Shown piece by piece: positions 10,132-54,409 of a DNA stretch of 62,586 nucleotides. Location: contig JAVBKJ010000011.1 in assembly GCA_031554075.1 (NCBI GenBank), positions 1 through 62,586 on the forward strand. Direction: 5' to 3'. Made by a program: the position numbers and the translations under genes. Position 1 is the first letter of the stretch, and each line of letters opens with the position of its first letter. Source of the stretch: Oscillospiraceae bacterium (GTDB lineage Bacteria > Bacillota > Clostridia > Oscillospirales > UBA929). The notes beneath the pieces were generated by a model. That model was not told the DNA's origin. It worked only from the letters and a program-made list of their open reading frames with translations, and ran no database searches.

Positions 10132-10172
10132 GCTTAATTCGCAAGACGGACGTACCGCCTTGCGAATTAAGC
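10132..10172 (-). terminator. 14-bp-stem hairpin between the two giant genes (weak terminator or attenuator)
   Basis: GCTTAATTCGCAAG-13 nt-CTTGCGAATTAAGC. On the minus strand it is followed by TCATTTTCAAC, a short T tract. Confidence 0.4.
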
Positions 10173-10187
10173 ATGTTAGGAATTGGC

Positions 10188-13100
10188 TTAGGTAAAAGAG
10201 AAATTCCCCAATATGGAAGTATTGCCTCCGAGGGTCATATTAAAAGATAAGCCACCATGGGTGTAATCAATTACAGTACCGTCTGGATGACTGAACGTCG
10301 CGCCTAGTGCCACAAGTTCATCATAAGTAAGCGTTTCGGGAGAACCACCGCTATAGTTTACTGTGATGACAAGATCTTTCAAATTTAGTGGTCCTAGTGT
10401 AGTTAAGTTCAAGCCAGAAACTAGCGCAACGCCGCCCACATAAATTGACACTGGGAACTGTACTGATACTTTGATGGTGTTACCATCTGTACTGGGGTTT
10501 GAGTTTGCGACAGAGGTAGAAATGCCCAGTATACTGGTGGTAAAGCTTGTAGGGAAGGTATAGCCACTATCAGCCACTAAGGTAATTTCAGCGGTGTAGC
10601 TTGTAGCGCCTAAAAACGGATTGCCGCTTGACAATGTTCCGCCTATCGAAGACCAGACAATGTCCGAAATCGAATAATGACCATTGCCACCATCGCCGCT
10701 CAGGTCGCCTGCCGCTGGTGCTTTAAAGCTTGCCGTTGGCTGACGTATACCTGTGATGTTCGCCGTTGTTATGTCTATCAGTGCCGGCGGCGGTGTTGTG
10801 ACAGTAATGCGGTTGGTGTGAACTGTGTAGCCGTTGTAGCTAAGAATCACACGGGTATTGTGATGTGACATGTCTATGAGCGTGCCTTCCGCAGGGGTGA
10901 CGGTTATGCCATTTGCGCCAAAGTTAGCATAGGGGATAATCTGCTGGCTGCCGTCACTCATGGTAAAGCGAGCTGCCAAGGTCGTGTAATCCAGTGGTTG
11001 ACCCACCTCATAGATAAGCTTAGGATTCGTATACAGCGTAAAGCTTGTGACATTCACAGTGGGCGGTGTGACTGGTTTCGGGGTAATAACCATCGCACCC
11101 GTTGTGGCTATCGCCGTGCCGCAATGTAGCGTAATGGGGTTGCCGTTTTGCAGTATGCCCAGATTATAACCATGGGTAGGGCTTGCTGTAATCGCTGGCT
11201 CATGCTGAGAAAACTGGCTAAACGGCACAAGCGCGGTGTCCCCGTTGCTGTAGGTAACGCGCACAACGAGACCAGATAATTGCAAGGCATCCATTTCAAA
11301 GTACGCCAGCGTAGGTTGTGTATCAACCGCTATGCTAGCGACTGTTAGCGGTGCTGTTTGGGGGAATATGTAAGATAGCGTCATGGTGTTGCGCTCGGTG
11401 TTGGGGGTAGGATTGGTCGTGTAGGCTACATTGCCGTTTATGAAACCTTGGCACAATCCTGCAAATGTGTAGGCTGTGCCTGCCTTAACAGTTACCTTGG
11501 CAGTGTAGTTTGTGTTGGGCTTAAACTTACCTGTGGCAGTGAAGATATCCGCCGCATTGGTGTTGCCCGCGACGCTCCACTCCAAACTAACAGGCGACAA
11601 GACCCCGTCTGCCGACGAGTTGTACGTTAGGGCAGGTGTGCCGCTCGTGACAGGAGCCACAACACCAGTCACCCTCACATCGGTGATAGGTTTGAAATCG
11701 AGGATTAGCGACGTGGTGGTGGCCGAGGCTGTGCCGCAGGTGACAACGATGGGCTTGTTATGGTGCGCAGCAGCAGACAACACCGTGTTCTGCGTGGGGC
11801 TTACGTATACCGTTGGATTGTGAGTGGCAAAGGCAGCATAAGGCACATTGTGTTCGACAGAACCATCGTTATAGGTAATGTCAACTTTTAGCCCACCTAG
11901 CTTTAATTGGTTGCCTGTTACGTACGCCATCTTGGTCGGCTGATTTGCCACTGTGATACTAGCGGCAACGCGTGAACCAGTTGGTGGGAAAGAGTATTTT
12001 AAGGTAATCACATTGCCATCTGTATTCGGCGCGGTGTTGGTGACGGATACAAACAACCCGTTGATTTTGCCAGTGCAAGCCGCGGCAAATGCGTAATTGT
12101 TTAGTGCTTTCAATGTGATAGTGACGTCGTATGTCGTATTCGCCTTAAATTTGCCGTTTGCAAAGATGGTGGCAGCGTTAGTGTCTGCACCAATTGACCA
12201 TACAATGCTTTCGGCAGTGTATTGCCCCGCTGTCATAATAGATGGTGCGGTAATGGGTGTGCCGCCGATTGTAGGTGCGGTAACATTGGTCGCCGCCGCT
12301 GTCATGATGAGGTTTGCATTAACGGTCAACATACCCACTGGGATGGTCGTGCCAAGACAGGTTAGGGTGAGTGTCGTGCCATTATGTGTGGCATTGCTAA
12401 GGATTGTGCCGTGCGCCACAGAAGGTGTGATGCCGTGTAGGGCTAAGTCTGCATAGGGGACAGTTTTCGTCGTGCCGTCATTGTAGGTGAGGCTAACCGT
12501 TAAGCCCGCGAGGTTTAGGGTAGCACTTTGTGTGTAAACCATTGTCGTGGGAGGTGTAATGACAGCGAAGTTTGTGAGAGCCACACCAACTGTGGCGGGG
12601 AAGGTATAGGTTAGTGTCAATTCGTTCTCTGCCACATTGGGGGTAAGATTGCCCACATTGTTGGCATTCTGCGTATTTACCTTGCCCGTGCATCCATTTT
12701 TGAAGGTATAGCCAGACACTGCCTTGAGGGTAATCACCGCTGTATAGGCTGTGCCTGCTTTGAACGCACCCGTAGGGGTAAATATGTTTGTCTGAGAGCC
12801 GCCCACAGTCCACGTTACGTCCGTAGCAACATAGGTGCTGTTGCCAACGACAACAACGCCAGACGTAGCAGGCGTGTTGCCCTTAACAGGGGCAGGTAGT
12901 GTTGCTGTAACTGCGGCAATTTTAGCAGGTTTCACAATCAGCTTGGTGATTGACGTTGCCACACCACCCGATGCAGTGGTAACGCGCAACGCCTGCTTGT
13001 TATTATCTGCTATAGTTAATAGCGTGCCATTTGATGGGGTTACCCGTATCTGAGGTGTATGGGTGTCAAAATCGCTGGCATAGACGATTTCTGTTGCGTT

Positions 13101-16100
13101 ATCACTGTAAGTCAGTTTTACGCTCATGCCAGCCAACGCGAGTGCGTCTCCTTGAGTATAACTCATAAGGCTAGGGTCAGTCAAGACTTGAATAGAAGAA
13201 ACTGCTAAACTACCCGTTTTTGGGAAAGTGTACGTGACGGTCATTGTGTTGGCGGCAATGCCAACATTTGTCACCGTTGCGCCAGCCGCTTGCAGATTTA
13301 CTGTTGCGTTGGCTGTGCCTGCAAAGGTGTAGCCTGCATTTGCCTTGAGTGTGGCGGTGATGGAATACACCTTATCGGGGGCAAACTTTCCGTCGGCTGT
13401 CATGATATAATCGGTCGAGCCGCTAACGTTCCAAACAAAGTTTGTGACAGTGAAATGCCCGCTGTTAATGAGTACTTGTGCGGCTGTGGTGGGTGTGACA
13501 CCGATGGTGGGTTTTGTGATGCCCGTAAGCACAGCAGTGGTGATAACGTCTGGCAACACAGATAGATTGCCAGTGGTGTCCTGCCCGCCAGCAGGAGAAC
13601 CCACGCGTATGGCAGTCAAATGATGTTCCGCGGTTGTCAGTGTTGCGCCTTGGGCAACGCTGACGCCAAGGAGCGGTGAATGATTGTAAAAGTTTGCGTA
13701 GGGTACTCTGTTTTCAACTGTGCCGTCGTTATAGGTAATATTAACGGTTAATCCTGTTAAATCGAGCGGTTCGCCCTCAATATAGTTCATTTTCAAGGGC
13801 TGTGTTGCGATTACCAAGTTGTTAATCTTACGAATTGCCGTCATGGGAAAGGTGTAGGTAACTTGGATTGTGTTTCCGTCTGTCCCAGGGGTGGTGTTGG
13901 TTACGACACCGTTAAGACCATTAACCGTGCCGACACAGTCTGGTGAAAAGGCATAGCCAGCGAGTGCCGCAAGGGTGATGGTAACCGTATACACCTTGTC
14001 AGGCATAAACATGCCCGTTGGCGTAAATTCAGCACCAGAGGTACTGCCGCCAACACTCCATACCATTTGCTGTATCGCAAATTTGCCACCATTGCCGTTT
14101 ATCGCGGCTAAGGAGGAGGGCATAGTATTGATGGTAGGGATGCCGATGTCTGTCAGATTCGCGATGCTAATATTGACAGGGACAACGGTGAGATTCAGCG
14201 TATTCGCAGAGCCGCCTGCGGTGGTCGAGACGATAATGGGCTTGCCATTGTGCGTTGCAATCGCCATAACCGTGCCGCCTGCTGGTGCCGCTGTGATTTT
14301 AGGCACATGCGTCGCAAAGGCGGTGTGCGGCACGCCACTTTCCACTGTGCCATCATTGTAGACGAGATTCACGGTCAGACCCGTCAAGTCTAACGTCTCA
14401 CCGACATGATAGGCAAGCTTATCGGGCTGTGATGTAATCGTAAAGCTGTTTGTCGCCAAAGCCCCTGTTTTGGTGAATGACAAGGTTGCTGTGATGGTGT
14501 TGCCGTCTGCTCCTGCCGCCGTGTTTGTGACAACAGCGGTAAGACCATTGATGGTGACAGTCGAGCCGACCACAAAGGTGTAGTTGGGGTTGGCTTTCAA
14601 AGTGGCAACAGCTGTGTAGACAGTGTTTGCCTTAAATTTACCAGCGGGGGTAAAGATATTGGTCGTCGCACCGCCAACCTGCCACTGTAGGTCAAGGATA
14701 GAAAATTTGCCGTTGTTCGTATTCACATCCGTCGCGGCTGCTGGCTGATTGCCCAGAACAGGTGCGGCGACATTGGTTAGTACAGCATTGGCAATGTTGA
14801 TGGAGGTAACTGATAGCGGATTCGTCGTAACCAAACCGCCTAAATTTGTCGTAACGGTAATGGGCTTGCCGTGATGCGTCGCCACTGTGAGGGGTGTTCC
14901 TTGTGAGGGTGAACAGACAATCACAGGATTGTGCGCCGCAAAGGCTGTCGAGGGTATATTTGTTTCCGACGTTCCGTCATTGTAAGTAATATTAACTGAC
15001 AGTCCTGCCAAATTCAGCGTAGCACCTGCGGCATAGGTCAAGGTGGTCGGCTGTTGCGCAAGTGTCATGGTGGACACCGCCAAGGGAGCTGTCTCGGGGA
15101 AGGCAAGCGACACGACAACGGTATTACGTTCAACACCTGGTGTCACGGCAGACACGTAAGCGTCTTGACCATTAATGGTAGCTTTCATGCCAGGGGTGAA
15201 GGAATATGTAGCGTCAGCCTTGAGTACCACATCGACGGCGTATTTTGTCGAGGCTCTAAATTTCCCAGCAGGTGTCAATACGGGCGAAGCTGGCGCATCT
15301 GCTGCCAAACGCCACACCATACTCTGCACTGCAAATTTTCCGCCGTTTATGTTTACCACGCCTTGCGTGGCAGGCGTAGCACCGACGACAGGCGCAGGGA
15401 TACTTGTTAATGCAACTGTTGTGATATCATTTAACACTACCTCGAGGTTGGCGGTGTTCGCAGAGCCACCGATGGCAGAACTCACGGTGACAGGCTTACC
15501 GTTGTGCGTCGCAATGGTAAGCGTTGTACCATGTGCAGGGGTTGTGGTAATCACTGGCACGTGAGACGCAAAAGAGTTGTAGGGTACAGTATTTTCAGTC
15601 GTACCGTCATTGTATATAAGATTCACAGCCAAACCAGTTAAGTCTAGTTTTTGCCCTGTTATGTAGCTTAACTTGGTGGGTTGCGAAGCGATGGTCAAGC
15701 TTGTAATCGCCCGCGCCCCTGTTTTAGGGAACGTAAAGGCGACGCTAATACTGTTGCCGTCCACACCCGGGCTGACATTGGTAATGATGGCTGTCTGTCC
15801 GTTAATGGTGGCGGCACTGCCAACGACAAAGGACGCACCAGCGTTTGCCTTAATTGTTGCAACAGCGGTGTACACGGTATCAGCCTTAAAGGTAGCATTA
15901 GGTGTCAAAATGTTGGTGGTGGCACCATTTACCTGCCACGTTAGGTTTTGTATGACAAAGTTGCCGCCATTAGTGTTGACAGAGGTGTAGGTAACGGGCG
16001 CAACACCCAGCACGGGCGCTGTTATCCCTGTCAGGTTGGCGGTGAGGATACTTGTTGGTCCGACTGCTAACGCACCTGTATAGAGTGTGCCGCCTGCCGC

Positions 16101-17678
16101 AGTGGTTATTTTAATGGTCTTACCATTGTGCGTTGCGGCGTTTAGTAGCGTATCGTTTGCTAAATCGGTATAGATGGCAGGCACATTACTGGCAAACGCA
16201 CTATACGGTACGTTGCTGTCAGTACTGCCGTCGTTGTAACTAATGTTCACTTTTAGTGCCGATAAATCTAGTGCTTCCCCTTGCTTATAGGTAAGCTTCG
16301 GTTGCTGCACAATGCTAAAGCCCGTGACCGTCTTTGCCGCAGTTTTGGGGAAGGTAAAGGAAACGGCCATTCTATTGCGGTCTTTACCAGGTTCTAAGAG
16401 AGAAACAACGGCTGTCTGCCCATTAATAGTGGCGGTACTGCCCACCACAAAGGTCGCTCCAACGTTTGCTGCAACCCCCACTACGGCTGTATAAACTGTA
16501 TCCGCCTTAAATTTACCGTTCGGCGTCAGTGCATTAGTGGTGGAGTCGTCTACTCTCCACTGCAGGGCGTAAGTCGAATATGTACCACCGTTTGTGTTGA
16601 CGACAGCGTGGGTAATTGGTGTTGCACCCATCACTGGCGCAGTAACATTGGTAAGGGTAACATGTGTAATGTTTGCTATGGCAGGCTTTACACTTAAGTT
16701 GCCGACTGTTACTATCTTGCCAGAGACCGACACAGTCAACGCCGCACCGTTGTGACCCGTGGTCAACCCTGTACCATGACTGTAATTCACTGAAATAACG
16801 GGGTTGTGTGAGGCAAAGGAACTATACGGTATATTACTCTCTGTCGTGCCATCCGTATATGTTATGGTAGCACTCAAGCCAGACAGGTTCAGTGCTTGCC
16901 CCACTGTGTAGCTTAGGTTGGGGTTACCTACAATGGTTATTTGAGACGCTACCCGTTCGGCAGGCTTTACACTTAAGTTGCCAACCGTGACCGTCTTACC
17001 AGAGACCGACACAGTCAACGCCGCACCGTTGTGACCCGTGGTCAACCCTGTACCATGACCGTAATTCACTGAAATAACGGGGTTGTGCGAAGCAAATGAG
17101 CTGTAGGGTATGTTGCTCTCTGTCGCGCCATCTGTATACATAATGGTGGCACTCAAACCAGAGAGATTCAGTGGTTGCCCCGCCGTGTAGCTTAGGTTTG
17201 GCTGCCCAGAAATTGAAATATTGTAAGCAGTGCGAACAAGCTGTCCCGTAGCAGGGAAAGTAATCGCAAAATCGGCTAATGCAAGGAGATTGGCTTGGTA
17301 GCGTCTTCCTTCTATTCCATTAATAAACCCTCGTAAATATGGGCTGAATATATTGGAGTTATTTCTGGAAGCAGCAAGGATTTTGACAGTATACACTGTG
17401 TCAGCATTAAACTTCTCTCCACTAAAATAAGGGCCTTGTTCCCCACCAACAAACCAATCAACGTTGTTAACGAAATATTTATCTGTGTCATCGCCTGACG
17501 TTTGCTGAGCACCAGAAACTCTGAACGGTTTTGCACCTGCTACAGGCGCCGGAACATTAAAGTATACTGCTGAAACTAATGCCCCATTCATTACATAAGA
17601 CGCTTGTGCCTCGGGCATGGGCATCAGTCCGCATAGTAACAGTATCGCTAAAGCAACAGATATAATTCTCTTTTGCAT
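10188..17678 (-). CDS. Giant secreted modular protein (2,496 aa): signal peptide plus 11 'A' modules (~115 aa) interleaved with 13 bacterial Ig-like (Big_3-type) 'B' modules (~93 aa); no recognisable wall or membrane anchor
   Basis: Signal peptide MQKRIISVALAILLLCGLMPMPEAQA. B modules match I..QP.KL.Y..G..LDL.GL.V...YNDGT.E..VPY..FA.H.P.I. A modules match VTAPV.G..P.......NGG.F......W.V.G.....TP.GKFKA.TVYTA...LKA..GYTF........ING......N..PG.DGNTI.V..TFPKT. The protein ends ...GNTSILGNFSFT with no LPXTG, SLH or TM segment. AAGGAG RBS. Confidence 0.85.
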   Translation of the reverse strand: MQKRIISVALAILLLCGLMPMPEAQASYVMNGALVSAVYFNVPAPVAGAKPFRVSGAQQTSGDDTDKYFVNNVDWFVGGEQGPYFSGEKFNADTVYTVKILAASRNNSNIFSPYLRGFINGIEGRRYQANLLALADFAITFPATGQLVRTAYNISISGQPNLSYTAGQPLNLSGLSATIMYTDGATESNIPYSSFASHNPVISVNYGHGTGLTTGHNGAALTVSVSGKTVTVGNLSVKPAERVASQITIVGNPNLSYTVGQALNLSGLSATITYTDGTTESNIPYSSFASHNPVISVNYSHGTGLTTGHNGAALTVSVSGKIVTVGNLSVKPAIANITHVTLTNVTAPVMGATPITHAVVNTNGGTYSTYALQWRVDDSTTNALTPNGKFKADTVYTAVVGVAANVGATFVVGSTATINGQTAVVSLLEPGKDRNRMAVSFTFPKTAAKTVTGFSIVQQPKLTYKQGEALDLSALKVNISYNDGSTDSNVPYSAFASNVPAIYTDLANDTLLNAATHNGKTIKITTAAGGTLYTGALAVGPTSILTANLTGITAPVLGVAPVTYTSVNTNGGNFVIQNLTWQVNGATTNILTPNATFKADTVYTAVATIKANAGASFVVGSAATINGQTAIITNVSPGVDGNSISVAFTFPKTGARAITSLTIASQPTKLSYITGQKLDLTGLAVNLIYNDGTTENTVPYNSFASHVPVITTTPAHGTTLTIATHNGKPVTVSSAIGGSANTANLEVVLNDITTVALTSIPAPVVGATPATQGVVNINGGKFAVQSMVWRLAADAPASPVLTPAGKFRASTKYAVDVVLKADATYSFTPGMKATINGQDAYVSAVTPGVERNTVVVSLAFPETAPLAVSTMTLAQQPTTLTYAAGATLNLAGLSVNITYNDGTSETNIPSTAFAAHNPVIVCSPSQGTPLTVATHHGKPITVTTNLGGLVTTNPLSVTSINIANAVLTNVAAPVLGNQPAAATDVNTNNGKFSILDLQWQVGGATTNIFTPAGKFKANTVYTAVATLKANPNYTFVVGSTVTINGLTAVVTNTAAGADGNTITATLSFTKTGALATNSFTITSQPDKLAYHVGETLDLTGLTVNLVYNDGTVESGVPHTAFATHVPKITAAPAGGTVMAIATHNGKPIIVSTTAGGSANTLNLTVVPVNISIANLTDIGIPTINTMPSSLAAINGNGGKFAIQQMVWSVGGSTSGAEFTPTGMFMPDKVYTVTITLAALAGYAFSPDCVGTVNGLNGVVTNTTPGTDGNTIQVTYTFPMTAIRKINNLVIATQPLKMNYIEGEPLDLTGLTVNITYNDGTVENRVPYANFYNHSPLLGVSVAQGATLTTAEHHLTAIRVGSPAGGQDTTGNLSVLPDVITTAVLTGITKPTIGVTPTTAAQVLINSGHFTVTNFVWNVSGSTDYIMTADGKFAPDKVYSITATLKANAGYTFAGTANATVNLQAAGATVTNVGIAANTMTVTYTFPKTGSLAVSSIQVLTDPSLMSYTQGDALALAGMSVKLTYSDNATEIVYASDFDTHTPQIRVTPSNGTLLTIADNNKQALRVTTASGGVATSITKLIVKPAKIAAVTATLPAPVKGNTPATSGVVVVGNSTYVATDVTWTVGGSQTNIFTPTGAFKAGTAYTAVITLKAVSGYTFKNGCTGKVNTQNANNVGNLTPNVAENELTLTYTFPATVGVALTNFAVITPPTTMVYTQSATLNLAGLTVSLTYNDGTTKTVPYADLALHGITPSVAHGTILSNATHNGTTLTLTCLGTTIPVGMLTVNANLIMTAAATNVTAPTIGGTPITAPSIMTAGQYTAESIVWSIGADTNAATIFANGKFKANTTYDVTITLKALNNYAFAAACTGKINGLFVSVTNTAPNTDGNVITLKYSFPPTGSRVAASITVANQPTKMAYVTGNQLKLGGLKVDITYNDGSVEHNVPYAAFATHNPTVYVSPTQNTVLSAAAHHNKPIVVTCGTASATTTSLILDFKPITDVRVTGVVAPVTSGTPALTYNSSADGVLSPVSLEWSVAGNTNAADIFTATGKFKPNTNYTAKVTVKAGTAYTFAGLCQGFINGNVAYTTNPTPNTERNTMTLSYIFPQTAPLTVASIAVDTQPTLAYFEMDALQLSGLVVRVTYSNGDTALVPFSQFSQHEPAITASPTHGYNLGILQNGNPITLHCGTAIATTGAMVITPKPVTPPTVNVTSFTLYTNPKLIYEVGQPLDYTTLAARFTMSDGSQQIIPYANFGANGITVTPAEGTLIDMSHHNTRVILSYNGYTVHTNRITVTTPPPALIDITTANITGIRQPTASFKAPAAGDLSGDGGNGHYSISDIVWSSIGGTLSSGNPFLGATSYTAEITLVADSGYTFPTSFTTSILGISTSVANSNPSTDGNTIKVSVQFPVSIYVGGVALVSGLNLTTLGPLNLKDLVITVNYSGGSPETLTYDELVALGATFSHPDGTVIDYTHGGLSFNMTLGGNTSILGNFSFT
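16681..17238 (-). repeat. Two tandem 279-bp copies (93 codons each) encoding the first two B modules
   Basis: Copies 16681-16959 and 16960-17238 align without gaps and share a 61-nt perfectly identical core (ccagagaccgacacagtcaacgccgcaccgttgtgacccgtggtcaaccctgtaccatgac). By eye, identity is roughly 85-90% over the first ~230 nt. Confidence 0.85.
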
Positions 17679-17763: not shown

Positions 17764-17940
17764 TTATTTCTGGTTTGTTTCCTTAGTGTCCATGGCTAGC
17801 AAACGTTGTTCGAGATTCATAGGCTCTTGTGATTGATGCAGAAAAAAATCACACGCAGATCTTGTGCTTTTTGTGGCCGTTATCTTTGCCAAGGATGCCA
17901 TCTTTCTTGTGAAAAAATTGCCTTTTTTGTTAGTGTTCAT
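17764..17940 (-). CDS. agrD: AgrD-type autoinducing-peptide precursor (58 aa; not in the supplied ORF track)
   Basis: Hand translation: MNTNKKGNFFTRKMASLAKITATKSTRSACDFFLHQSQEPMNLEQRLLAMDTKETNQK. AAGGAG RBS (17951-17956) lies 10 nt before the ATG. The ORF sits immediately after and overlaps agrB by 11 nt. Cys, a 5-residue ring candidate (CDFFL) and Pro at Cys+10 match S. aureus (CDFIMDEVEVP) and clostridial AgrD. An alternative start at Met14 gives 45 aa. Confidence 0.75.
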   Translation of the reverse strand: MNTNKKGNFFTRKMASLAKITATKSTRSACDFFLHQSQEPMNLEQRLLAMDTKETNQK

Positions 17941-18529
17941 TTTGTGTTTTCTCCTTATATAATGTAGTTAGTACAGCAAATGCCATACTTCCGCAAACGG
18001 ACAACATGGATAAGAGTATGGCGGTAAAGATGCGCGAGGGACAAAAAAACGTGCCGACGGTACAGCCCACTGCAAATGTAAAAGCCACAATAATGCTTTT
18101 TAGTTTCAGTGTGCGTTTTAACGTCGGCTTTAGGTACTTATTGACATGCGCCACGGGGGCGAGGGCAAGGACTGTCAACAGCGTAATGCCACTGATGATA
18201 ACAGATAGCATTCTGTAGCTTTCTTGTGGCAGCCATTGCAATAGTAAAAGGCTTACTGTAAGGAGGCAGGCAAAGGCGGTGATACATCCAGCATGTGTCT
18301 GCGCATGATGTCCGCCCGTAAAGCCGCGAAACAACGCAAACGCGAAAGTAAACACCACGCCCTCCCAAAACATTCCAAAACATAGGGAAATCAGCAAGCT
18401 TAGCAAACAATTAAATAGGGTGGATACAATTGTTTCACAAGCGTAAGTATAAATGTCGTCATCCTCTTGCGCGATGATGCCTTGCCTTATAAAAACAGAT
18501 GCTATCCGTTTCGCCAAGGTGTGAATCAT
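17930..18529 (-). CDS. agrB: AgrB-family accessory gene regulator protein (AIP-processing membrane peptidase)
   Basis: Multi-TM protein carrying the family motif FRGFTGGHHA. I prefer the ATG at 18529 (MIHTLAKRIA...) preceded by GGGGTGA. The ORF track extends to a TTG at 18589. Confidence 0.85.
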   Translation of the reverse strand: MIHTLAKRIASVFIRQGIIAQEDDDIYTYACETIVSTLFNCLLSLLISLCFGMFWEGVVFTFAFALFRGFTGGHHAQTHAGCITAFACLLTVSLLLLQWLPQESYRMLSVIISGITLLTVLALAPVAHVNKYLKPTLKRTLKLKSIIVAFTFAVGCTVGTFFCPSRIFTAILLSMLSVCGSMAFAVLTTLYKEKTQNEH

Positions 18530-18597
18530 TTGTATCACCCCAGGGCTAAGAATAGCATCTGTTATGTATATTTTCAAGTGGCTATGCAAAATTGACG

Positions 18598-19920
18598 TTA
18601 ATCATGCAAAATTGGAATGCGCGGAATCGAAAATAAAAGACGAAATACATTTTCATCAAACTCAAAGCTCAGTTCGCCCCCTAGCGAACGAGCGGTTGCC
18701 TGCATACTGATCAGTCCTAAACCGTGAGAATCCTTATCATTTTTCAGAGTGTGTAAGAAAGTGCCATCATATTGAGGTCTTTCTCCGATTGTGTTCTCTA
18801 TTACCGTCAACATATTGGTTTTATACATGGACACACGCATATGTATAAACCGTTCTTTGTCACTTCGCATACACGCCTCAATCGCGTTATCTAGCGCGTT
18901 GCCAAATAAAGCACAAATGTCAACTGTGAGATCAGACATTTGGGGAGGCACTTGAATGTCCCAATGGCACTGGATATGATTCTTTTTGGCGAGATTTCGT
19001 TTTGCGGATAACAGCGCGTCGAGCATCGGGTTATCGGTTAAAACCACAGGCGTGACATCGTGTTGCCAATCGGTAAGCTTCGCCAAACTATCAGACAGTT
19101 CGTCAAATTGTCCCATTTCGCAAAGCGACCGAAACATATGCACGTGTTGCTTAAAATCATGCGACATTTGCCGTATTTGCGCCCGATTTTCTGTCAGCTG
19201 CAAAATATAATCACGCTGTGCGGCAACCTGTGCATCTAATAAGGCTAATCGTTTGTCTTTTTCACTGCGGCGAATAAGCTCCTCCATGATAGAGAAAACC
19301 GCCATATTGATTAAGACTAGCCCGAAAATGCAAAACAATGTTGTGATAGTTTGGGGGCTATAGTCTGACAACGCGTCTATTGTAAATTGCAGTGCTAAGA
19401 AAATTGAAAAAATAGGTAGCATCCATAGCGGAATCCAAAGTCTGGAACGCATGACCTCCATGCTCCCGACACGCAATCTCATTATGATTTTGATTAATAG
19501 AAATTTGAGCAAATCCATGATAATCAGCGCAGCAAACCTATATTTTGTAAAATCTGCCACCTGCTGAAATGTAACTGTTTGCGAAATGGATATGATAACG
19601 GCCGCCAGAAGCTCCGCGCCAATCGCACATAGAAGATATATAAAAGCGGACAGCACAGCCCATAGGACAGTACACTGCCGTGTCGTAAGACAGACTATAA
19701 ACGTAAAGAGGATGGTGCTTGATAAAATAATCAATATGCTGTCTTTTAGAAAGTAGCTGATGAGAAATTTTGCGATACAGACACAGAGAAAGAGTGTCAA
19801 CACGAGTGGCTTGCGCAGTGTACGACGTTCCTTAAAAAAGGCACTAGCAAACATGAAAATTAAGATAGTTTCTATCAAGGCGCTCAGTGCTTCGATGATA
19901 GCCCAAAGCGAAATGTTCAT
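18598..19920 (-). CDS. agrC: AgrC-like (HPK10) membrane sensor histidine kinase
   Basis: About 6 N-terminal TM helices, H-box SHDFKQHVHMF, N-box FGNALDNAIEA, G-box DSHGLGLISM. Confidence 0.8.
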   Translation of the reverse strand: MNISLWAIIEALSALIETILIFMFASAFFKERRTLRKPLVLTLFLCVCIAKFLISYFLKDSILIILSSTILFTFIVCLTTRQCTVLWAVLSAFIYLLCAIGAELLAAVIISISQTVTFQQVADFTKYRFAALIIMDLLKFLLIKIIMRLRVGSMEVMRSRLWIPLWMLPIFSIFLALQFTIDALSDYSPQTITTLFCIFGLVLINMAVFSIMEELIRRSEKDKRLALLDAQVAAQRDYILQLTENRAQIRQMSHDFKQHVHMFRSLCEMGQFDELSDSLAKLTDWQHDVTPVVLTDNPMLDALLSAKRNLAKKNHIQCHWDIQVPPQMSDLTVDICALFGNALDNAIEACMRSDKERFIHMRVSMYKTNMLTVIENTIGERPQYDGTFLHTLKNDKDSHGLGLISMQATARSLGGELSFEFDENVFRLLFSIPRIPILHD

Positions 19921-20633
19921 GATAGCCCCTCCCGTCTAAAGCCCATATAGGCAGCTTTGACAAGCTTTTGATACTTTCGACTAATGGGGATTTTTGTGCC
20001 ATCTAGCAGGGACACATGGTCGTCGAACTGGATAAACACATGCGCCAAATTAACAATATATGAATTATGAGTTCGCACAAACCCGTGATGTACCAACAGC
20101 GGTTCTTCGATATCCAACTTGCCCATAAACTCGTATTTTCTGTCAATTGTGTTGACATGTATGTAGTGCTTGACACTTTCGATAAATTGTATGTCTGCCA
20201 TTGGTAAGGCGAGTTGACCGCCGCCCTTTAACTTTATGACGTATGTTTGGGTCTTTCTGCGGGTGAGCATGGTGACAATTCTGTCCATCGTGGGTTCAAA
20301 CCGTTCCCTAGTGACTGGCTTTACTAAGTAGTCAGACGCCATCACTGTAAAAGCCTGCAGCATCGCTTCTTCCATAAACGTGACGAAGATTATATGTACG
20401 CGCATGTCTAGCATTCGAATCTTTTCAGCTAAGGCAAACCCATTCATGTCGGGCATCGACACATCTAAAAACAGTATGTCAAAGTGGCGACTTGGATAGT
20501 CTAGCAATAGTTTGGCGGCGGTGTCATATTCATTTACATCGAAGTTGAGCATATGTTGTTTTTCGTACTGGGCAATGAGTTTTCTCTGACGTTCGATATG
20601 AATTTTCTCATCGTCACAAATCGCTATTCGCAT
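19917..20633 (-). CDS. agrA: AgrA-like response regulator (REC plus LytTR DNA-binding domain)
   Basis: MRIAICDDE...DILFLDVSMPDMNG receiver domain. C-terminal LytTR pattern ...FVRTHNSYIVNLAHV...IPISRKY. 4-nt ATGA overlap with the kinase gene. GGGAGG RBS. Confidence 0.85.
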   Translation of the reverse strand: MRIAICDDEKIHIERQRKLIAQYEKQHMLNFDVNEYDTAAKLLLDYPSRHFDILFLDVSMPDMNGFALAEKIRMLDMRVHIIFVTFMEEAMLQAFTVMASDYLVKPVTRERFEPTMDRIVTMLTRRKTQTYVIKLKGGGQLALPMADIQFIESVKHYIHVNTIDRKYEFMGKLDIEEPLLVHHGFVRTHNSYIVNLAHVFIQFDDHVSLLDGTKIPISRKYQKLVKAAYMGFRREGLS

Positions 20634-20647
20634 GAATTGCCTCCCAT

Positions 20648-20764
20648 CTGGATACTCTGTCAGATTATATCATAATGGAAAATATAATCAATAGCAAGTG
20701 TAACAGACAAAATAGGCATAGAAGTAAGGCGCATGGATGTAAAACGGGCGGTATGGTGAAGGGG
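20648..20764. repeat. 117-bp direct repeat, copy 1 (promoter module upstream of agrA)
   Basis: Aligns without gaps to 23592-23708. About 6 mismatches in the first 80 nt, a ~10-nt divergent patch, then a conserved distal block (cgggcggtatggt[g/a]aagggg). Confidence 0.9.
20664..20691 (-). promoter_or_regulatory. Sigma-A-type promoter for the agr operon (TTGATT-16 nt-TATAAT with TGn extended -10)
   Basis: Minus strand reads ATTGATTatattttccattaTGATATAATctgaca. The predicted start is about 25 nt before the agrA ATG. Confidence 0.6.
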
Positions 20765-20820
20765 GGAATTGATTGTGGAATTTAAGTCGGGGGTGATGGT
20801 GGCTGTGGAGGAATAATGGT

Positions 20821-20860
20821 AAGAATGAAAAAGGCACTCTACCGATTGACGTAGAGTGCC
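20821..20860 (-). terminator. Rho-independent terminator of the 793-aa gene (T tracts on both sides)
   Basis: GGCACTCTAC-8 nt-GTAGAGTGCC, followed by TTTTTCATTCTT on the minus strand and by ACTTTTGTTT on the plus strand. Confidence 0.8.
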
Positions 20861-20888
20861 ACTTTTGTTTGCAAGCATATATGTAACT

Positions 20889-23270
20889 CTATGATTGAGC
20901 TAATCCCTCTTCGAAAGAACTCTTAAATTTTCTCAAATTCTTTCTTGCGATTTTCATAGCCTCAACGGATTCTTCAGCTTTCTTTATCTTTCCTTGGAGT
21001 TCCTTCTTCTCTTTGCCATTTGCTACATCTGCATGAAGTTTTAATTCGACAATACCTTTTTCGATCTCCATAATATTTTGCACATATTGCTCGTAGATGC
21101 TGTTTGAATACTCAATATCGTGTTCGTCATTAAGGAAGATTTCTCTGACTGAAACAAGGAGTTTTGCGGACTGTAAAATGGTATTTTGCTTTCCGAGTAG
21201 ACCAGCAGCACCAACAGCACCGCCGACACCTAAACCGGCTCCAATACCGAGTACAGCTCCGCCACCGACAATTGCTATCGTGCCACCAGCCATTCCTGCA
21301 CCGCCTATAGCAATTGCGCCACCGCCGAGATAAGCAAGACAAGCACTTGTTAGTGCCGCACCACTGAGTCCAGCAAAATTCGAGCCAACTAATGCAACGG
21401 CAATTGCAGGAGCAAACGCACCCGCTGTTGCAATTGTGATGATTGCTATTCCGGCGGTTATTGCTCCCCCTATTAAAATCCCCTTGAGAACTTCTTTCAT
21501 TTCTAAAACGACTTTGCCGTAACATTTGCGAAGCCTTTTAATATAACCTTTTTTATAATAATCACCAGAGAAAAACAAATCGATAAAATCGTCACCGTTG
21601 CTTTTCCTATAACTGTTAATAGGGTTTTGTAGGTCTTTGTATTTCTTACTCGGCACGCCAGTGCCCATTTTATCTTTTTCTATACTTAGCGGATAAAATG
21701 GCTCAAAAAGCATTGCTTCAAGTAGAACCAAGCGAAACCAAGTATTATGTGGCTCGTTTTCCTCAATTTTCTGAATTAATTCTTGCTCTGTGTACCAGTG
21801 TAGTTCAGCACCTTCAATTTGCAAGAAACTTGAAAAGCCCTTCGAGATGTACTCTTTCCACTCATTGAGCCAGTCTTGCTTTAGGCGTTTTATACCTTCA
21901 TTGTTGATAGGCGATATTGTTGCTTGAATGTCATTTAGGGTTTTGTAGAATTCGAGGTTGTACAAAATCTCTGTCTGGGCTACCGTTAAACCAAGTTTAT
22001 CAATATTCATATCGGCACTTATCCTATCATAAATTTTGTCGTCAGTTTTCGTATATGCAAACCTATGAATGTTCTCGTACATCGTCTTTATTCTTTTGAC
22101 GCTTCTGGTTTTCAAACACCAAGATATGTCTTCTCCTAATGCAACGGTGAAACGGCCAACACCAACGTAATTGATAGACACCCAGTATTTTTGAGTGACA
22201 ATTGCCTCGCCGACATCAATGGTGGTAAAGACTCCAGTAGCGATCGTTAGCATTCGGGAAATTGTGGGATTATTTAGCGGCTTAACTATGTCCCAATCAA
22301 TCTGTTTCATTTCAGCAAATGACCGAATGTCTTGTTCCCGAATCTCGATTGCAAGATGTCGGATGAAATAGAAACATCTAACGATGCACTCATTTGCGAT
22401 AACAGGAATCGCCTGTCGCCCAAGTTCGAAGACAACGCCGAGTTCACCGCGGAAATCAAACTTCATCACGGTATCTTTGATAATCGTGCCAGATTCATCG
22501 CGCCTCGCAAGCAACGTGCCGTTAAAGAGTTTTGACAAAAACACTGATAAAGAATTATCGCCGATATTTATGTTTTTGAAAATCGGAAGCACAGATAGTT
22601 CTTTTGCCAACGCAAGCAGGGGACCGGGGATGCCAGTACCGCCACTCTTGCCTACGGAACTTCTCGAACCGGCTACATCACTCACGAGATGAAAGAACCA
22701 CGTAATAGTTCCGAATAGTATTTTTGATGGCACATCCTTACCAATGAAGGCTTTACTTACTTCCTGCACGTCGGCAATCATAAAAACACCGTTGACATCT
22801 GTTCCGTATGACTTGTAGGTGAACTGTGTAAGGAGTGAAAATATAAGCCCTACAATTGTGGGGTGGTGAGCAAAATCACGAAGATGGTGCTGTAAGCCGC
22901 CACCAAAGTCAGGGGTATTGCCATCGCTTGGAATCGGAAATTTCTTTTCAAGGAATTTTACCGCACCCTTCAAATCGTCGCCACTGTAACCGAGAAGCTT
23001 TGCTGTTTTGGTTACAAAGCTGTCTATTTCATTGCTCGTGATGCTGCGACCACGTTCCAAGCTAAAGCTACCTACCCATAGAATGTCGAGCAATCCGCAC
23101 ATAACCCCGCTACCAATTGAAACCAAGTAGTCGTATTTGTCCGCTTGGCTTGACAGCAAATCAATCTGACTGTCTAAGTCGAAGATTATCCTATCAAGGT
23201 TATACTCAGAATCAAACTTGCTCTCGTTGTACTGTTGAAGTTCGACTTGGAGATTATCTGTTTCTAACAT
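20889..23270 (-). CDS. Uncharacterised 793-aa protein: unassigned ~600-aa N-terminal region, ~100-aa glycine-zipper (GxxxG/AxxxG) membrane tract, charged coiled-coil-like tail
   Basis: Long ORF with a GGGAGG RBS. The tract is GILIGGAITAGIAIITIATAGAFAPAIAVALVGSNFAGLSGAALTSACLAYLGGGAIAIGGAGMAGGTIAIVGGGAVLGIGAGLGVGGAVGAAGLLG. The tail is ...KEKKELQGKIKKAEESVEAMKIARKNLRKFKSSFEEG. I see no canonical Walker A or other catalytic motif. Confidence 0.8.
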   Translation of the reverse strand: MLETDNLQVELQQYNESKFDSEYNLDRIIFDLDSQIDLLSSQADKYDYLVSIGSGVMCGLLDILWVGSFSLERGRSITSNEIDSFVTKTAKLLGYSGDDLKGAVKFLEKKFPIPSDGNTPDFGGGLQHHLRDFAHHPTIVGLIFSLLTQFTYKSYGTDVNGVFMIADVQEVSKAFIGKDVPSKILFGTITWFFHLVSDVAGSRSSVGKSGGTGIPGPLLALAKELSVLPIFKNINIGDNSLSVFLSKLFNGTLLARRDESGTIIKDTVMKFDFRGELGVVFELGRQAIPVIANECIVRCFYFIRHLAIEIREQDIRSFAEMKQIDWDIVKPLNNPTISRMLTIATGVFTTIDVGEAIVTQKYWVSINYVGVGRFTVALGEDISWCLKTRSVKRIKTMYENIHRFAYTKTDDKIYDRISADMNIDKLGLTVAQTEILYNLEFYKTLNDIQATISPINNEGIKRLKQDWLNEWKEYISKGFSSFLQIEGAELHWYTEQELIQKIEENEPHNTWFRLVLLEAMLFEPFYPLSIEKDKMGTGVPSKKYKDLQNPINSYRKSNGDDFIDLFFSGDYYKKGYIKRLRKCYGKVVLEMKEVLKGILIGGAITAGIAIITIATAGAFAPAIAVALVGSNFAGLSGAALTSACLAYLGGGAIAIGGAGMAGGTIAIVGGGAVLGIGAGLGVGGAVGAAGLLGKQNTILQSAKLLVSVREIFLNDEHDIEYSNSIYEQYVQNIMEIEKGIVELKLHADVANGKEKKELQGKIKKAEESVEAMKIARKNLRKFKSSFEEGLAQS

Positions 23271-23591
23271 ATTAAAGTATCCTCCCAGTATTTAAAATTT
23301 AAGCGATGCAACGCCCCCCTTGAGGTTAAACTAATATCTGCAAAGCAAACAGAGAACTTCAGTGCTATCACACATGAGATTACACGCAAAAACATCTAAA
23401 GCGACCACACAACCTCATAAAATCCGAAAAACATCTACTCCGCTCTCTCGTGAACACCCAATATCTAAACTGACCTCTCGTCAACCACCCACATCCAATC
23501 AGTGCTGTCACACTCCCAACTGCCGCACTCGACTTATTCCCAACACCCATATTTCCACGATTTTTCACATTGACTTCTCACATAGAAACAC

Positions 23592-23708
23592 CTGGATACT
23601 CTGTCAAATTATATCATAATGGAAAATATAATCAATTGCAAGTGCAATAGACAAAATAAGTATAGAAGTAAGATTTATAACTGTATAACGGGCGGTATGG
23701 TAAAGGGG
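23592..23708. repeat. 117-bp direct repeat, copy 2 (promoter module upstream of the 793-aa gene)
   Basis: See copy 1. The two copies are 2,944 bp apart. Confidence 0.9.
23608..23635 (-). promoter_or_regulatory. Sigma-A-type promoter, paralogue of the agr promoter, driving a ~330-nt leader and the 793-aa gene
   Basis: It carries the same TTGATT-16 nt-TGATATAAT arrangement inside repeat copy 2. Confidence 0.55.
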
Positions 23709-23711
23709 TAG

Positions 23712-23747
23712 ATAAAAAATAAGACACCTTACGAAACGTAGGGTGTC
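23712..23747 (-). terminator. Rho-independent terminator of the flavoprotein gene
   Basis: GACACCTTACG-AAA-CGTAGGGTGTC, followed on the minus strand by TTATTTTTTAT. Confidence 0.8.
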
Positions 23748-23778
23748 CTAATGAGCGTAGTCGTCTATAAAGACATAT

Positions 23779-24342
23779 TCAAATAGAGTAGCCCATATGT
23801 TCCGCTTGTATCAGCGCATCTGTCTTCTGAATAGCCCCTTTTTCATATATTTGTGGGATTGCTAACACGCCGACATCTTCCCAGTGCATATACGCCGCCA
23901 TATGTCTGTATGAAGAAATGACACCTGAAAAAATATCCATGCTCTCACATGCGCCACAAATCAACAGTATACTCTCTTTAATCTTCAATGGACGCATACA
24001 GTTTTCAGAATCATACGCATTCAGTTTATCAATCGGTGCTTTGATTTGCGATGATAACCCAAACAAATATAAGGGAGATGCAAAGATAACTACATCTGCA
24101 CGTTCAAGTAGCGGCTCTAGTTCAGTAAAGCCATCTTGAAATGAACAAGCCGTTCCTTTGCTCCAACAGGTACCACAGGCTTTGCAACCGCCAATCGTTT
24201 TTCTGCCCGCCGAAAATTTTGTAACATTGTGACCTTTCGCTTGTGCGCCCTTTATAAACGCATCAGCCATCAGTTCACTATTACCATCTCTTCTGGGACT
24301 TCCTGTAATAACTAAAATATCTTTTTCCACTTTATTTCTCAA
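23779..24342 (-). CDS. Flavodoxin-like NAD(P)H-dependent FMN reductase / iron-sulfur flavoprotein family
   Basis: ILVITGSPRRDGNSELMADAF... and the Cys cluster GGCKACGTCW. Confidence 0.7.
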   Translation of the reverse strand: MRNKVEKDILVITGSPRRDGNSELMADAFIKGAQAKGHNVTKFSAGRKTIGGCKACGTCWSKGTACSFQDGFTELEPLLERADVVIFASPLYLFGLSSQIKAPIDKLNAYDSENCMRPLKIKESILLICGACESMDIFSGVISSYRHMAAYMHWEDVGVLAIPQIYEKGAIQKTDALIQAEHMGYSI

Positions 24343-54407: not shown

Positions 54408-54409
54408 GG

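What the first reader, a model, noticed from the sequence alone, without database searches (positions are those of the whole stretch)
17764..17940. Cryptic 58-codon AgrD-like precursor with a predicted CDFFL thiolactone ring, missing from the ORF track
A hand reverse-complement of 17764-17940 gives MNTNKKGNFFTRKMASLAKITATKSTRSACDFFLHQSQEPMNLEQRLLAMDTKETNQK.

Supporting features:
- AAGGAG RBS 10 nt upstream of the ATG.
- The start lies inside the last codons of agrB.
- A basic, amphipathic N-terminus.
- A single Cys followed by four hydrophobic or acidic residues.
- Pro exactly at Cys+10, as in S. aureus AgrD-I (YSTCDFIM-DEVEVP) and C. perfringens AgrD (SACLWFT-HQPEEP).

The ring sequence C-D-F-F-L differs from the staphylococcal group I ring (C-D-F-I-M) at only two positions. 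The tail length cannot be read from the sequence.
Basis: partly seen in the sequence, partly recalled or inferred. Interest (0 to 1): 0.7.

Follow-up and report, generated by a model that had tools for sequence, protein, structure and literature searches.

The report
AgrD quorum-sensing peptide precursor gene
The small gene is a genuine but ordinary AgrD-type precursor of a cyclic quorum-sensing peptide, lying in a complete agr-type signalling locus of an uncultured Oscillospiraceae-like gut-type Clostridium.

Summary
The 58-codon ORF at 17764-17940 (-) exists exactly as described. It has an AAGGAG site 10 nt upstream and overlaps the agrB stop codon by 11 nt.

It passes NCBI's AgrD model (TIGR04223, 29.7 bits against a cut-off of 19). 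It lies directly after an AgrB gene (PF04647, E 8e-33), in the order LytTR regulator, polytopic GHKL kinase, agrB, agrD.

Seven related loci, with AgrB 22-45 % identical, carry a small ORF at the same place, and every one passes the AgrD model. Together with two reference AgrDs, all ten sequences align with Cys or Ser at the ring position and an invariant Pro at +10. By alignment the macrocycle is C-D-F-F-L.

An exact direct repeat, CAATTTTGCAT-9 nt-CAATTTTGCAT, sits just upstream of a promoter-like site before agrB. This is the LytTR-box layout, and it recurs in related loci (P about 1e-8). It implies autoinduction.

Caveats:
- The gene is already called in the public record, so it is not cryptic.
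- If the leader is cut directly before Cys, the thiolactone would rearrange to a homodetic cyclopeptide, as shown for other Clostridia.
- The likeness to S. aureus AIP-I is probably convergent.

Verdict: a new member of a known kind, of low to moderate interest.

The parts
17764..17940 (-). agrD: 58-codon precursor, made up of a 29-aa basic leader, the core C30-D-F-F-L34 and a 24-aa follower HQSQEP...RLLAM...
   Evidence: Translation. TIGR04223 scores 29.7 bits against a cut-off of 19. Alignment with 9 other AgrDs. It is the only small ORF in the window with the family core motif.
17839..17853 (-). Codons TGT GAT TTT TTT CTG, encoding the predicted macrocycle Cys-Asp-Phe-Phe-Leu
   Evidence: Read directly from the sequence. 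Ring boundaries are inferred from alignment, from C. perfringens CLWFT/CLWFTH and from S. aureus C28..M32.
17951..17956 (-). AAGGAG ribosome-binding site, 10 nt before the agrD ATG and inside the 3' end of agrB
17930..18529 (-). agrB: 199-aa membrane peptidase/cyclase, taking the ATG start with a GGGGTGA RBS. The longest ORF would start at a TTG at 18589. R68/H75/C82 align with S. aureus R70/H77/C84.
   Evidence: PF04647 AgrB, E 8e-33. The 199-aa form is the one in the public collection. Invariant H75 and C82. BLASTP against S. aureus AgrB. Hydrophobic segments.
18584..18614 (-). Two exact 11-nt direct repeats, CAATTTTGCAT-gattaacgt-CAATTTTGCAT, with a 20-nt period. This is the candidate binding site for the LytTR regulator. 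The distal box lies in the last codons of the kinase gene.
   Evidence: 0 of 100 shuffles give the pair. The same layout is present in L003. Pairs with a 20-21 nt period are enriched upstream of agrB in related loci: 4 of 8 loci against a 0.34 % background, P about 1e-8.
18549..18577 (-). Promoter-like site TTGAAA-17-TATTCT with a TG extension, 6 nt downstream of the proximal box and about 20 nt upstream of the agrB ATG
   Evidence: a consensus match only
18598..19920 (-). AgrC-like sensor histidine kinase, 440 aa. It has about 7 hydrophobic segments in residues 1-212, the H-box SHDFKQH, and a C-terminal GHKL domain.
   Evidence: PF14501 HATPase_c_5, E 3e-20. Hydropathy profile and sequence.
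19917..20633 (-). AgrA-like response regulator, 238 aa, with a receiver domain and a LytTR DNA-binding domain. Its stop overlaps the kinase start (ATGA).
   Evidence: PF00072 and PF04397. The AgrA equivalog NF046049 scores only 44.5 bits against a cut-off of 400.
20664..20691 (-). Promoter-like site TTGATT-16-TATAAT with TG, upstream of the regulator gene. No repeat boxes accompany it.
20833..20860 (-). Terminator-like hairpin (10 bp, 6 GC, followed by a T-run) that closes the upstream gene and marks the 5' border of the agr unit
10188..17678 (-). 2496-aa secreted protein with a Sec signal peptide and 6 Big_3 repeats. It starts 85 nt after agrD with no terminator-like site between, so it may be a read-through target of the agrBD promoter (inferred).
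   Evidence: Pfam Big_3. Signal peptide. No terminator on the - strand after agrD and only a weak fold. There is a hairpin with 18-nt arms, 94 % complementary, at 10132-10172 after the gene.

Best explanation
The ORF at 17764-17940 (-) is a real agrD gene.

**Proposed mechanism**
1. Translation of agrD is coupled to that of agrB through the 11-nt overlap.
2. AgrB, a membrane cysteine peptidase, recognises the follower HQSQEP...RLLAM and cleaves after Leu34. It passes the acyl group to the thiol of Cys30, giving a five-residue C-D-F-F-L thiolactone that is still attached to the basic leader.
3. A second protease removes the leader at a position that cannot be read from the sequence. No such protease is encoded in the window.
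4. If the cut falls directly before Cys30, the free amine attacks the thioester. The secreted signal is then the homodetic cyclo(CDFFL), which has the same mass.
5. Outside the cell, the peptide is sensed by the polytopic AgrC-like kinase, which phosphorylates the LytTR regulator.
6. The regulator binds the CAATTTTGCAT direct repeats in front of agrB and raises agrBD transcription, which is autoinduction. It probably also raises transcription of the 2496-aa Big_3 surface protein gene that follows without a terminator.
7. The regulator and kinase genes appear to have their own box-less promoter.

**Shown and inferred**
- Shown in silico: gene identity, synteny, conservation, and the repeat architecture.
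- Inferred: the cleavage sites, the cyclisation chemistry, regulator binding to the boxes, and read-through into the downstream gene.
For: - TIGR04223 hit above its cut-off.
- AgrB, GHKL-kinase and LytTR-regulator domains in the adjacent genes on the same strand.
- RBS and overlap with agrB.
- agrD-like ORFs at the same position in L001, L003, L004, L005, L007, L008 and L010, all passing TIGR04223.
- The Cys/Ser column and Pro(+10) align across 10 sequences.
- The core motif is unique among the 538 small ORFs of the window.
- AgrB R68/H75/C82 align with the S. aureus residues R70/H77/C84.
- The C. perfringens AIP is probably a tail-less CLWFT ring followed by H in the precursor, in the same register as CDFFL|H.
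- An exact 11-nt direct repeat with a 20-nt period abuts the -35 of a promoter-like site before agrB.
- The same layout is present in L003 and is enriched in related loci.
- The gene order regulator, kinase, agrB, agrD is shared by L004, L008 and L010.
Against: - There are no expression or chemical data.
- The staphylococcal Pfam AgrD model gives no hit.
- A search with AgrD alone finds no homologue at database-wide significance. All evidence of homology therefore comes from the family HMM together with synteny.
- The first Pro of the usual HQPxxP follower is Ser here, and its effect on AgrB processing is unknown.
- The residue at -3 before Cys is Arg, which is atypical for a signal-peptidase-type cut right before Cys.
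- The promoter and box assignments are consensus and repeat matches only.
- Read-through into the giant gene rests on the absence of a detectable terminator.
Confidence: 0.85

Rival explanations
1. The precursor is the same, but the mature signal is not a thiolactone. The leader is removed directly before Cys30, and the transient thiolactone rearranges by an S->N acyl shift to the homodetic cyclopentapeptide cyclo(Cys-Asp-Phe-Phe-Leu) with a free thiol. This is a refinement of the best explanation, not an exclusive alternative.
For: - Molloy et al. 2021 (PMC8251862) showed that AIPs without an N-terminal extension from several Clostridia are homodetic cyclopeptides formed this way.
- The C. 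perfringens AIP is probably tail-less (PMC7300355).
- The organism is a Clostridium-class bacterium of the Oscillospiraceae type.
- Ala precedes Cys directly (..RSA|C), as in C. perfringens ..TSA|C and in L001 ..SAA|C.
Against: - The residue at -3 is Arg, not a small residue, so a signal-peptidase-like cut directly before Cys is not clearly favoured (sequence).
- Five of the seven related AgrDs have Ser at the ring position. An ester would undergo O->N shift less readily (own knowledge), so a stable (thio)lactone with a tail may be the norm in this subfamily.
Confidence: 0.4
2. The ORF is a real AgrD, but the ring or the start is different. Examples are a six-residue ring CDFFLH, or translation from Met14 instead of Met1.
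For: - Ring size is inferred only from alignment.
- TIGR04223 matches residues 10-43 only, and typical AgrDs are shorter at the N-terminus.
- An internal Met14 exists.
Against: - The strong AAGGAG site precedes Met1, and no Shine-Dalgarno-like sequence precedes Met14.
- The two closest relatives also have N-terminal extensions of similar length.
- In C. perfringens the six-membered CLWFTH peptide acts as an inhibitor, not as the natural signal.
- Pro(+10) and the [HY][QE] pair at +5/+6 keep the same register in all ten sequences.
Confidence: 0.07
3. It is a chance ORF in the agrB-to-surface-protein spacer, and the locus is an agr system that has lost its peptide gene.
For: Short ORFs are abundant: the window holds 148 of 50-70 aa. 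'Cys with Pro at +10' occurs in 51 of 538 small ORFs.
Against: - The HMM hit is above the curated cut-off.
- The RBS and the overlap with agrB.
- The ORF is conserved at the same place in 7 other loci.
- The family motif is unique in the window.
Confidence: 0.02

Closest known systems
Clostridium perfringens AgrD / Agr-like AIP (ring CLWFT)
   Same: - The small precursor is encoded right after agrB.
- The local sequence ..SAC-x4-HQ-xxEP..L is nearly the same: SACLWFTHQPEEP against SACDFFLHQSQEP (34 % identity).
- The five-residue ring is followed by His (6-R = CLWFTH).
- The organism belongs to the class Clostridia.
   Different: - The ring residues differ (DFFL against LWFT).
- The first Pro of the follower is Ser here.
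- The precursor is 14 residues longer, with an extra N-terminal MNTNKKGNF and a longer C-terminal RLLAMDTKETNQK.
- The leader is basic and hydrophilic, not hydrophobic.
- Here a dedicated kinase and LytTR regulator are encoded in the same locus. According to the papers found (PMC7300355, PMC7492741), C. perfringens signals through VirS/VirR encoded elsewhere.
Only CLWFTH was verified in a paper.
Staphylococcus aureus agr group I (AgrD-I, AIP-I YSTCDFIM)
   Same: - Four-component logic: AgrB, AgrD, a polytopic HPK10-type kinase and a LytTR regulator with direct-repeat boxes.
- The ring is C-D-F-hydrophobic-hydrophobic, with the endocyclic Asp that decides group I/IV specificity.
- Pro lies at Cys+10.
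- The AgrB residues R70/H77/C84 are conserved.
   Different: - The gene order is regulator, kinase, agrB, agrD, not agrBDCA.
- Only agrBD carries the boxes.
- AgrB is 22 % identical and far below the staphylococcal equivalog cut-off.
- There is no PF05931 hit.
- The follower is near-neutral and 24 aa long, against an acidic one of 14 aa.
- No RNAIII-like element is known or found (Rfam: nothing).
- The ring similarity (3 of 5 identical) is most simply explained by convergence.
Ruminiclostridium cellulolyticum Rc-AIP1 and other clostridial cAIPs (Molloy et al. 2021, PMC8251862)
   Same: It is a clostridial AgrB/AgrD pair with a Cys at the cyclisation position. The possible outcome is a tail-less peptide that rearranges to a homodetic cyclopeptide.
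   Different: No chemical data exist here. Sequence relatedness to the Rc-AgrDs was not tested. Many of this ORF's relatives use Ser, not Cys.
Gut-microbiome AIP families mined at scale (Nat Commun 2025, PMC11953309)
   Same: It belongs to the same RiPP class, recognised by the AgrD domain together with an adjacent AgrB. The paper considers both lactone and thiolactone forms and the cAIP rearrangement.
   Different: Whether this exact family is in their catalogue could not be checked. The protein is a singleton at 90 % identity, and the ring string CDFFL is not found as a peptide in the searchable literature.

Membership tests
AgrD family cyclic lactone autoinducer peptide (NCBIfam TIGR04223) | Score at or above the curated model cut-off of 19 bits | tested here: met
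   29.7 bits, E 5.3e-7, residues 10-43 matched to model positions 3-36 of 38
AgrD family cyclic lactone autoinducer peptide (NCBIfam TIGR04223) | Small ORF encoded immediately next to agrB on the same strand | tested here: met
   agrD overlaps the 3' end of the PF04647 gene by 11 nt
AgrD family cyclic lactone autoinducer peptide (NCBIfam TIGR04223) | Cys or Ser at the cyclisation position, four more ring residues, then a follower with a conserved Pro | tested here: met
   C30 falls in the Cys/Ser column and P40 in the invariant Pro column of a 10-sequence alignment. The motif [CS]x4[HY][QE]x3P is unique among 538 small ORFs.
AgrD family cyclic lactone autoinducer peptide (NCBIfam TIGR04223) | Conserved, uninterrupted ORF in homologous loci | tested here: met
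   Found in L001, L003, L004, L005, L007, L008 and L010. All pass TIGR04223 with 22.9-43.9 bits.
AgrD family cyclic lactone autoinducer peptide (NCBIfam TIGR04223) | Processed by AgrB to a secreted cyclic (thio)lactone or cyclopeptide | not testable with these tools
   This needs LC-MS/MS or heterologous agrBD expression. Predicted masses are given.
Staphylococcal AgrD (Pfam PF05931) | Match to the Pfam AgrD model | tested here: not met
   No Pfam family at E <= 1. The ORF is not a staphylococcal-type AgrD.
AgrB peptidase/cyclase (Pfam PF04647) | Pfam hit above the gathering score; polytopic membrane protein; catalytic His and Cys seven residues apart | tested here: met
   113.7 bits against a cut-off of 23. 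Five to six hydrophobic segments.
Staphylococcal AgrB equivalog (NCBIfam NF002210) | Score at or above 282 bits | tested here: not met
   25.8 bits
agr-type two-component module (AgrC-like HPK10 kinase plus AgrA-like LytTR regulator) | Polytopic sensor with a GHKL (HATPase_c_5) kinase; regulator with receiver and LytTR domains; both encoded in the same locus | tested here: met
   PF14501, PF00072 and PF04397. About 7 hydrophobic segments and an SHD H-box.
agr-type two-component module (AgrC-like HPK10 kinase plus AgrA-like LytTR regulator) | Orthology to staphylococcal AgrA (NF046049, cut-off 400 bits) | tested here: not met
   44.5 bits. The domain architecture is the same, but the protein is not an equivalog.
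agr-type two-component module (AgrC-like HPK10 kinase plus AgrA-like LytTR regulator) | Pair of direct repeats about two helical turns apart, just upstream of the -35 of the autoinduced promoter | tested here: met
   CAATTTTGCAT appears twice with a 20-nt period, 6 nt from TTGAAA. Pairs are enriched in related loci. Actual binding was not tested.

The most novel reading that the evidence does not exclude
The secreted product is a tail-less or short-tailed C-D-F-F-L macrocycle. Its ring nearly copies that of S. aureus AIP-I (C-D-F-I-M), including the specificity-determining endocyclic Asp. It could therefore act as a natural cross-genus modulator, most likely an inhibitor, of staphylococcal AgrC. 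In its own host, the signal would directly switch on a 2496-residue Big_3 surface protein through read-through from the box-controlled agrBD promoter. That would be quorum control of a giant adhesin in an uncultured Oscillospiraceae-type anaerobe.
Probability: 0.1. Interest if true: 0.55.

Novelty: new member of a known kind. Interest (0 to 1): 0.25.

Why it matters
The finding adds one more autoinducing-peptide system to the large and already well-catalogued agr family. The host lineage has no cultured close relative: its SecA is at most 74 % identical to any other protein found.

Its practical value is modest:
- A concrete peptide (ring CDFFL, with masses given) that can be synthesised and tested.
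- A clearly delimited candidate regulator box (CAATTTTGCAT, twice).
- A plausible quorum-controlled output, the giant Big_3 surface protein.

The ring's likeness to S. aureus AIP-I makes it an inexpensive candidate for cross-inhibition assays. Nothing here changes current understanding of agr systems.

Tried and rejected
- **Pfam scan of the 58-aa ORF:** no hit. PF05931 is a staphylococcal model.
- **Database-wide search with AgrD alone:** it found only itself. The protein is too short and divergent for significance against 5.8 billion sequences.
- **Exact-product look-up of AgrD on contigs:** not on record.
- **Metagenome-contig scan with the AgrB alignment:** 407 pattern matches, none a relative.
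- **Genome-contig scan:** it found only distant AgrB relatives (22-32 % identity) and not the source genome, so the organism could not be named from it. SecA homologues were used to place the organism instead.
- **PDB sequence searches:** no solved relative for AgrB or the kinase.
- **Rfam and tRNA scans of the window:** nothing.
- **Literature search for 'CDFFL':** only unrelated strings.
- **Repeat boxes elsewhere:** I looked for the CAATTTTGCAT box upstream of the regulator gene, of the giant genes and elsewhere in the window. Only the pair before agrB was found.
- **Terminator between agrD and the giant gene:** none on the coding strand, and the region folds only weakly, z = -1.55.
- **Chance ORF:** considered and rejected (see rival explanations).
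- **Specific relationship to staphylococcal group I agr:** considered and rejected.
- **Leader protease:** no MroQ/CPBP-type leader protease is encoded in the window.

Full report

Yes.
- AAGGAG lies at 17956-17951, 10 nt before the ATG.
- The upstream ORF ends with TAA at 17932-17930, so the two genes overlap by 11 nt.
- There is one Cys (C30) and one Pro (P40, which is Cys+10).
- The 29-residue leader has seven K/R and no acidic residue. Its helical hydrophobic moment is only moderate, 0.3-0.43.

Length by itself means nothing, since the window has 148 ORFs of 50-70 codons. 'Cys with Pro at +10' is also common, occurring in 51 of 538 small ORFs. The evidence that it is more than chance comes from section 2.

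The word 'cryptic' is not justified. The identical 58-aa protein is already in the public protein collection, from an NCBI contig of 62,586 bases, which is the whole window.

**2. What is it?**

*The ORF and its neighbours*
- The ORF scores 29.7 bits on NCBIfam TIGR04223 ('AgrD family cyclic lactone autoinducer peptide'; cut-off 19, E 5e-7). The staphylococcal Pfam AgrD model gives nothing.
- The gene it overlaps is an AgrB (PF04647, 113.7 bits, E 8e-33).
- Upstream on the same strand lies a 440-aa kinase with a GHKL HATPase_c_5 domain. It has about seven hydrophobic segments in its first 212 residues.
- Upstream of the kinase is a 238-aa regulator with receiver and LytTR domains.
- In the direction of transcription the gene order is regulator, kinase, agrB, agrD.

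*AgrB*
- AgrB residues H75 and C82 are invariant among its closest relatives.
- Together with R68, they align with S. aureus AgrB R70/H77/C84.

*Conservation*
- All four agr proteins are singletons at 90 % identity.
- An exhaustive HMMER search finds 4,426 AgrB representatives at E <= 1e-3 but only 11 at E <= 1e-30. The best full-length matches are 38-45 % identical. This is a small divergent twig of a very large family.
- The two closest AgrBs that could be placed on contigs are L001 (termite-gut metagenome, 45 %) and L003 (41 %). Both are followed at once by a small ORF of the same design...SAACGAVIYQPKVPDDMAARLLAM... and ...PRSWFFMHQPEAPKNLAKRLQEM....
- Five more distant loci also have such an ORF. 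They come from Lachnospiraceae, Acutalibacteraceae and other Bacillota MAGs, with AgrB 22-32 % identical.
- All seven ORFs pass TIGR04223, at 22.9-43.9 bits.
- In a MAFFT alignment of these with C. perfringens and S. aureus AgrD, the window's C30 falls in the Cys/Ser ring column, and Pro(+10) is the only invariant residue besides Met1.
- The family core [CS]x4[HY][QE]x3P is found in only one of the 538 small ORFs of the window, and it is this one.

The identification as agrD is therefore secure.

**3. Source organism**

The window is chromosomal. It carries SecA, DnaJ, Der, PlsY, a GH94 phosphorylase and a chemotaxis receptor. SecA is at most 74 % identical to anything else. The best named hits are an Oscillospiraceae MAG (73 %), Intestinibacillus massiliensis and Papillibacter cinnamivorans (69 %), and Butyricicoccus (68 %). 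The source is therefore an uncultured Oscillospiraceae-type member of the Clostridia.

**4. How it most likely works**

*The ring*
- In C. perfringens the likely natural signal is the tail-less ring CLWFT, and the precursor continues with His (PMC7300355).
- In S. aureus the ring runs from C28 to M32 and is followed by D33 and E34 (PMC10482373).
- By the same register, AgrB should cut after Leu34 and form a C-D-F-F-L thiolactone.
- The follower HQSQEPMNLEQRLLAMDTKETNQK is 24 residues long. It shares an RLLAM/RLQEM motif with the two closest relatives, presumably as part of AgrB recognition.

*The leader*
If the cut is directly before Cys, the thiolactone will rearrange by an S->N acyl shift to homodetic cyclo(CDFFL). 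This has been shown for several Clostridia (PMC8251862) and is assumed in gut-microbiome AIP mining (PMC11953309). I give this about 0.4.

*The regulatory architecture*
- On the coding strand the sequence reads CAATTTTGCAT-gattaacgt-CAATTTTGCAT-agccac-TTGAAA-17 nt-TATTCT-20 nt-ATG(agrB).
- The repeat pair is unique in the window and was never produced in 100 shuffles.
- L003 has the same layout: CAGTTCTGCAT-9-TAAATCTGCAC-6-TTGAAT.
- Pairs matching at 10 or more of 11 positions, with a 20-21 nt period, lie 20-120 nt upstream of agrB in 4 of 8 loci. Each locus has its own sequence. Only 0.34 % of random 100-nt segments have such a pair (binomial P about 1e-8).
- This is the classical LytTR-regulator site geometry (established knowledge for AgrA, ComE and PlnC).
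- No such pair precedes the regulator gene, which has a good box-less promoter-like site, TTGATT-16-TATAAT.

The inferred circuit is a constitutive sensor module and an autoinduced agrBD.

*The downstream gene*
No terminator-like site follows agrD on its strand, and the spacer folds only weakly. The next gene starts 85 nt downstream and encodes a 2,496-aa secreted protein with six Big_3 repeats. A hairpin with 18-nt arms, 94 % complementary, follows it. It is thus a plausible read-through target. This step is inference only.

**5. Comparison with what is known**

- The nearest characterised analogue is the C. perfringens AgrD (SACLWFTHQPEEP against SACDFFLHQSQEP).
- The system works like a canonical agr circuit, but it is not a staphylococcal-type member. 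The equivalog models for AgrB (25.8 bits against 282) and AgrA (44.5 against 400) fail, PF05931 fails, and AgrB is 22 % identical to S. aureus AgrB.
- The ring shares C, D and F with AIP-I, including the endocyclic Asp that determines group I/IV specificity. With such distant enzymes this is best read as convergence.
- The string CDFFL is not reported as a peptide in the searchable literature.

**6. Novelty and verdict**

AgrD/AgrB pairs are abundant in Clostridia. They are recognised automatically by a curated NCBI model and have been mined at scale in gut microbiomes. This one is a new, divergent member with a new ring sequence: a new member of a known kind.

Its points of mild interest are the AIP-I-like ring, the clean regulator boxes, and the possible coupling to a giant surface protein. 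Interest is 0.25. Confidence that it is a functional agrD giving a CDFFL macrocycle is 0.85. The exact mature form (tail length; thiolactone or homodetic) is open.

Noticed in passing
window 18584-18614 (-), with a promoter-like site at 18549-18577: An exact 11-nt direct repeat, CAATTTTGCAT, appears twice with a 20-nt period, abutting the -35 of a promoter-like site before agrB. The distal copy lies inside the last codons of the kinase gene. Analogous pairs with a 20-21 nt period are present upstream of agrB in L003, L005, L008 and L010.
   Followed up: yes
L003 1250-1405; L004 4707-4862; L005 4572-4706; L007 551-757; L008 4566-4745: Five of the seven related AgrD ORFs have Ser, not Cys, at the aligned cyclisation position (SWFFM, SLWGC, SDWGL, SAIYF, SMIIY). 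This implies lactone rather than thiolactone rings in these clostridial MAGs. Cys has been described as conserved in clostridial AgrDs (PMC8251862).
   Followed up: partly
window 10188-17678 (-) and 2170-10053 (-): Two consecutive giant surface-protein genes lie directly downstream of agrD. The first encodes 2496 aa with a Sec signal peptide, 6 Big_3 repeats and no recognisable anchor. The second encodes 2627 aa with fn3, CarboxypepD_reg/SdrD_B and two C-terminal SLH domains. No homologue of the first is present in the related agr loci.
   Followed up: partly
window about 18000-24000: G+C drops to 0.42-0.43 across the agr genes and the upstream 793-aa gene, against about 0.50 in the flanks. 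This may mark an accessory or acquired segment.
   Followed up: no
window 20889-23270 (-): A 793-aa ORF upstream of the agr unit has no Pfam family; the only match is a weak Rho_Binding hit at E 0.03. A strong terminator-like hairpin follows it at 20833-20860.
   Followed up: no
window 20660-20878 (-): A 72-aa ORF with no family hit spans the terminator hairpin and the regulator gene's promoter-like site. It is probably not a gene.
   Followed up: no
L003 438-575: A truncated agrB-like fragment (LIHNLANKMASIFVLYGESSEENADIYAYACEA..., 43 % identical to the window's AgrB N-terminus) lies just upstream of the intact agrB. It looks like a remnant of a duplication or recombination.
   Followed up: no
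window 54386-55234 (+) and 53238-54407 (+): A small radical-SAM/SPASM protein (282 aa) overlaps the end of a metallophosphoesterase gene. SPASM enzymes often mature peptides, but no precursor was looked for.
   Followed up: no
window 77-850 (+): A phage-integrase-family (tyrosine recombinase) gene lies at the contig end, about 1.3 kb from the 3' end of the SLH giant gene.
   Followed up: no
window 39313-43377 (-) and 34147-35760 (+): Two hybrid histidine kinase-receiver proteins (1354 aa with PAS, and 537 aa) lie in the same window. They appear unrelated to the agr unit.
   Followed up: no
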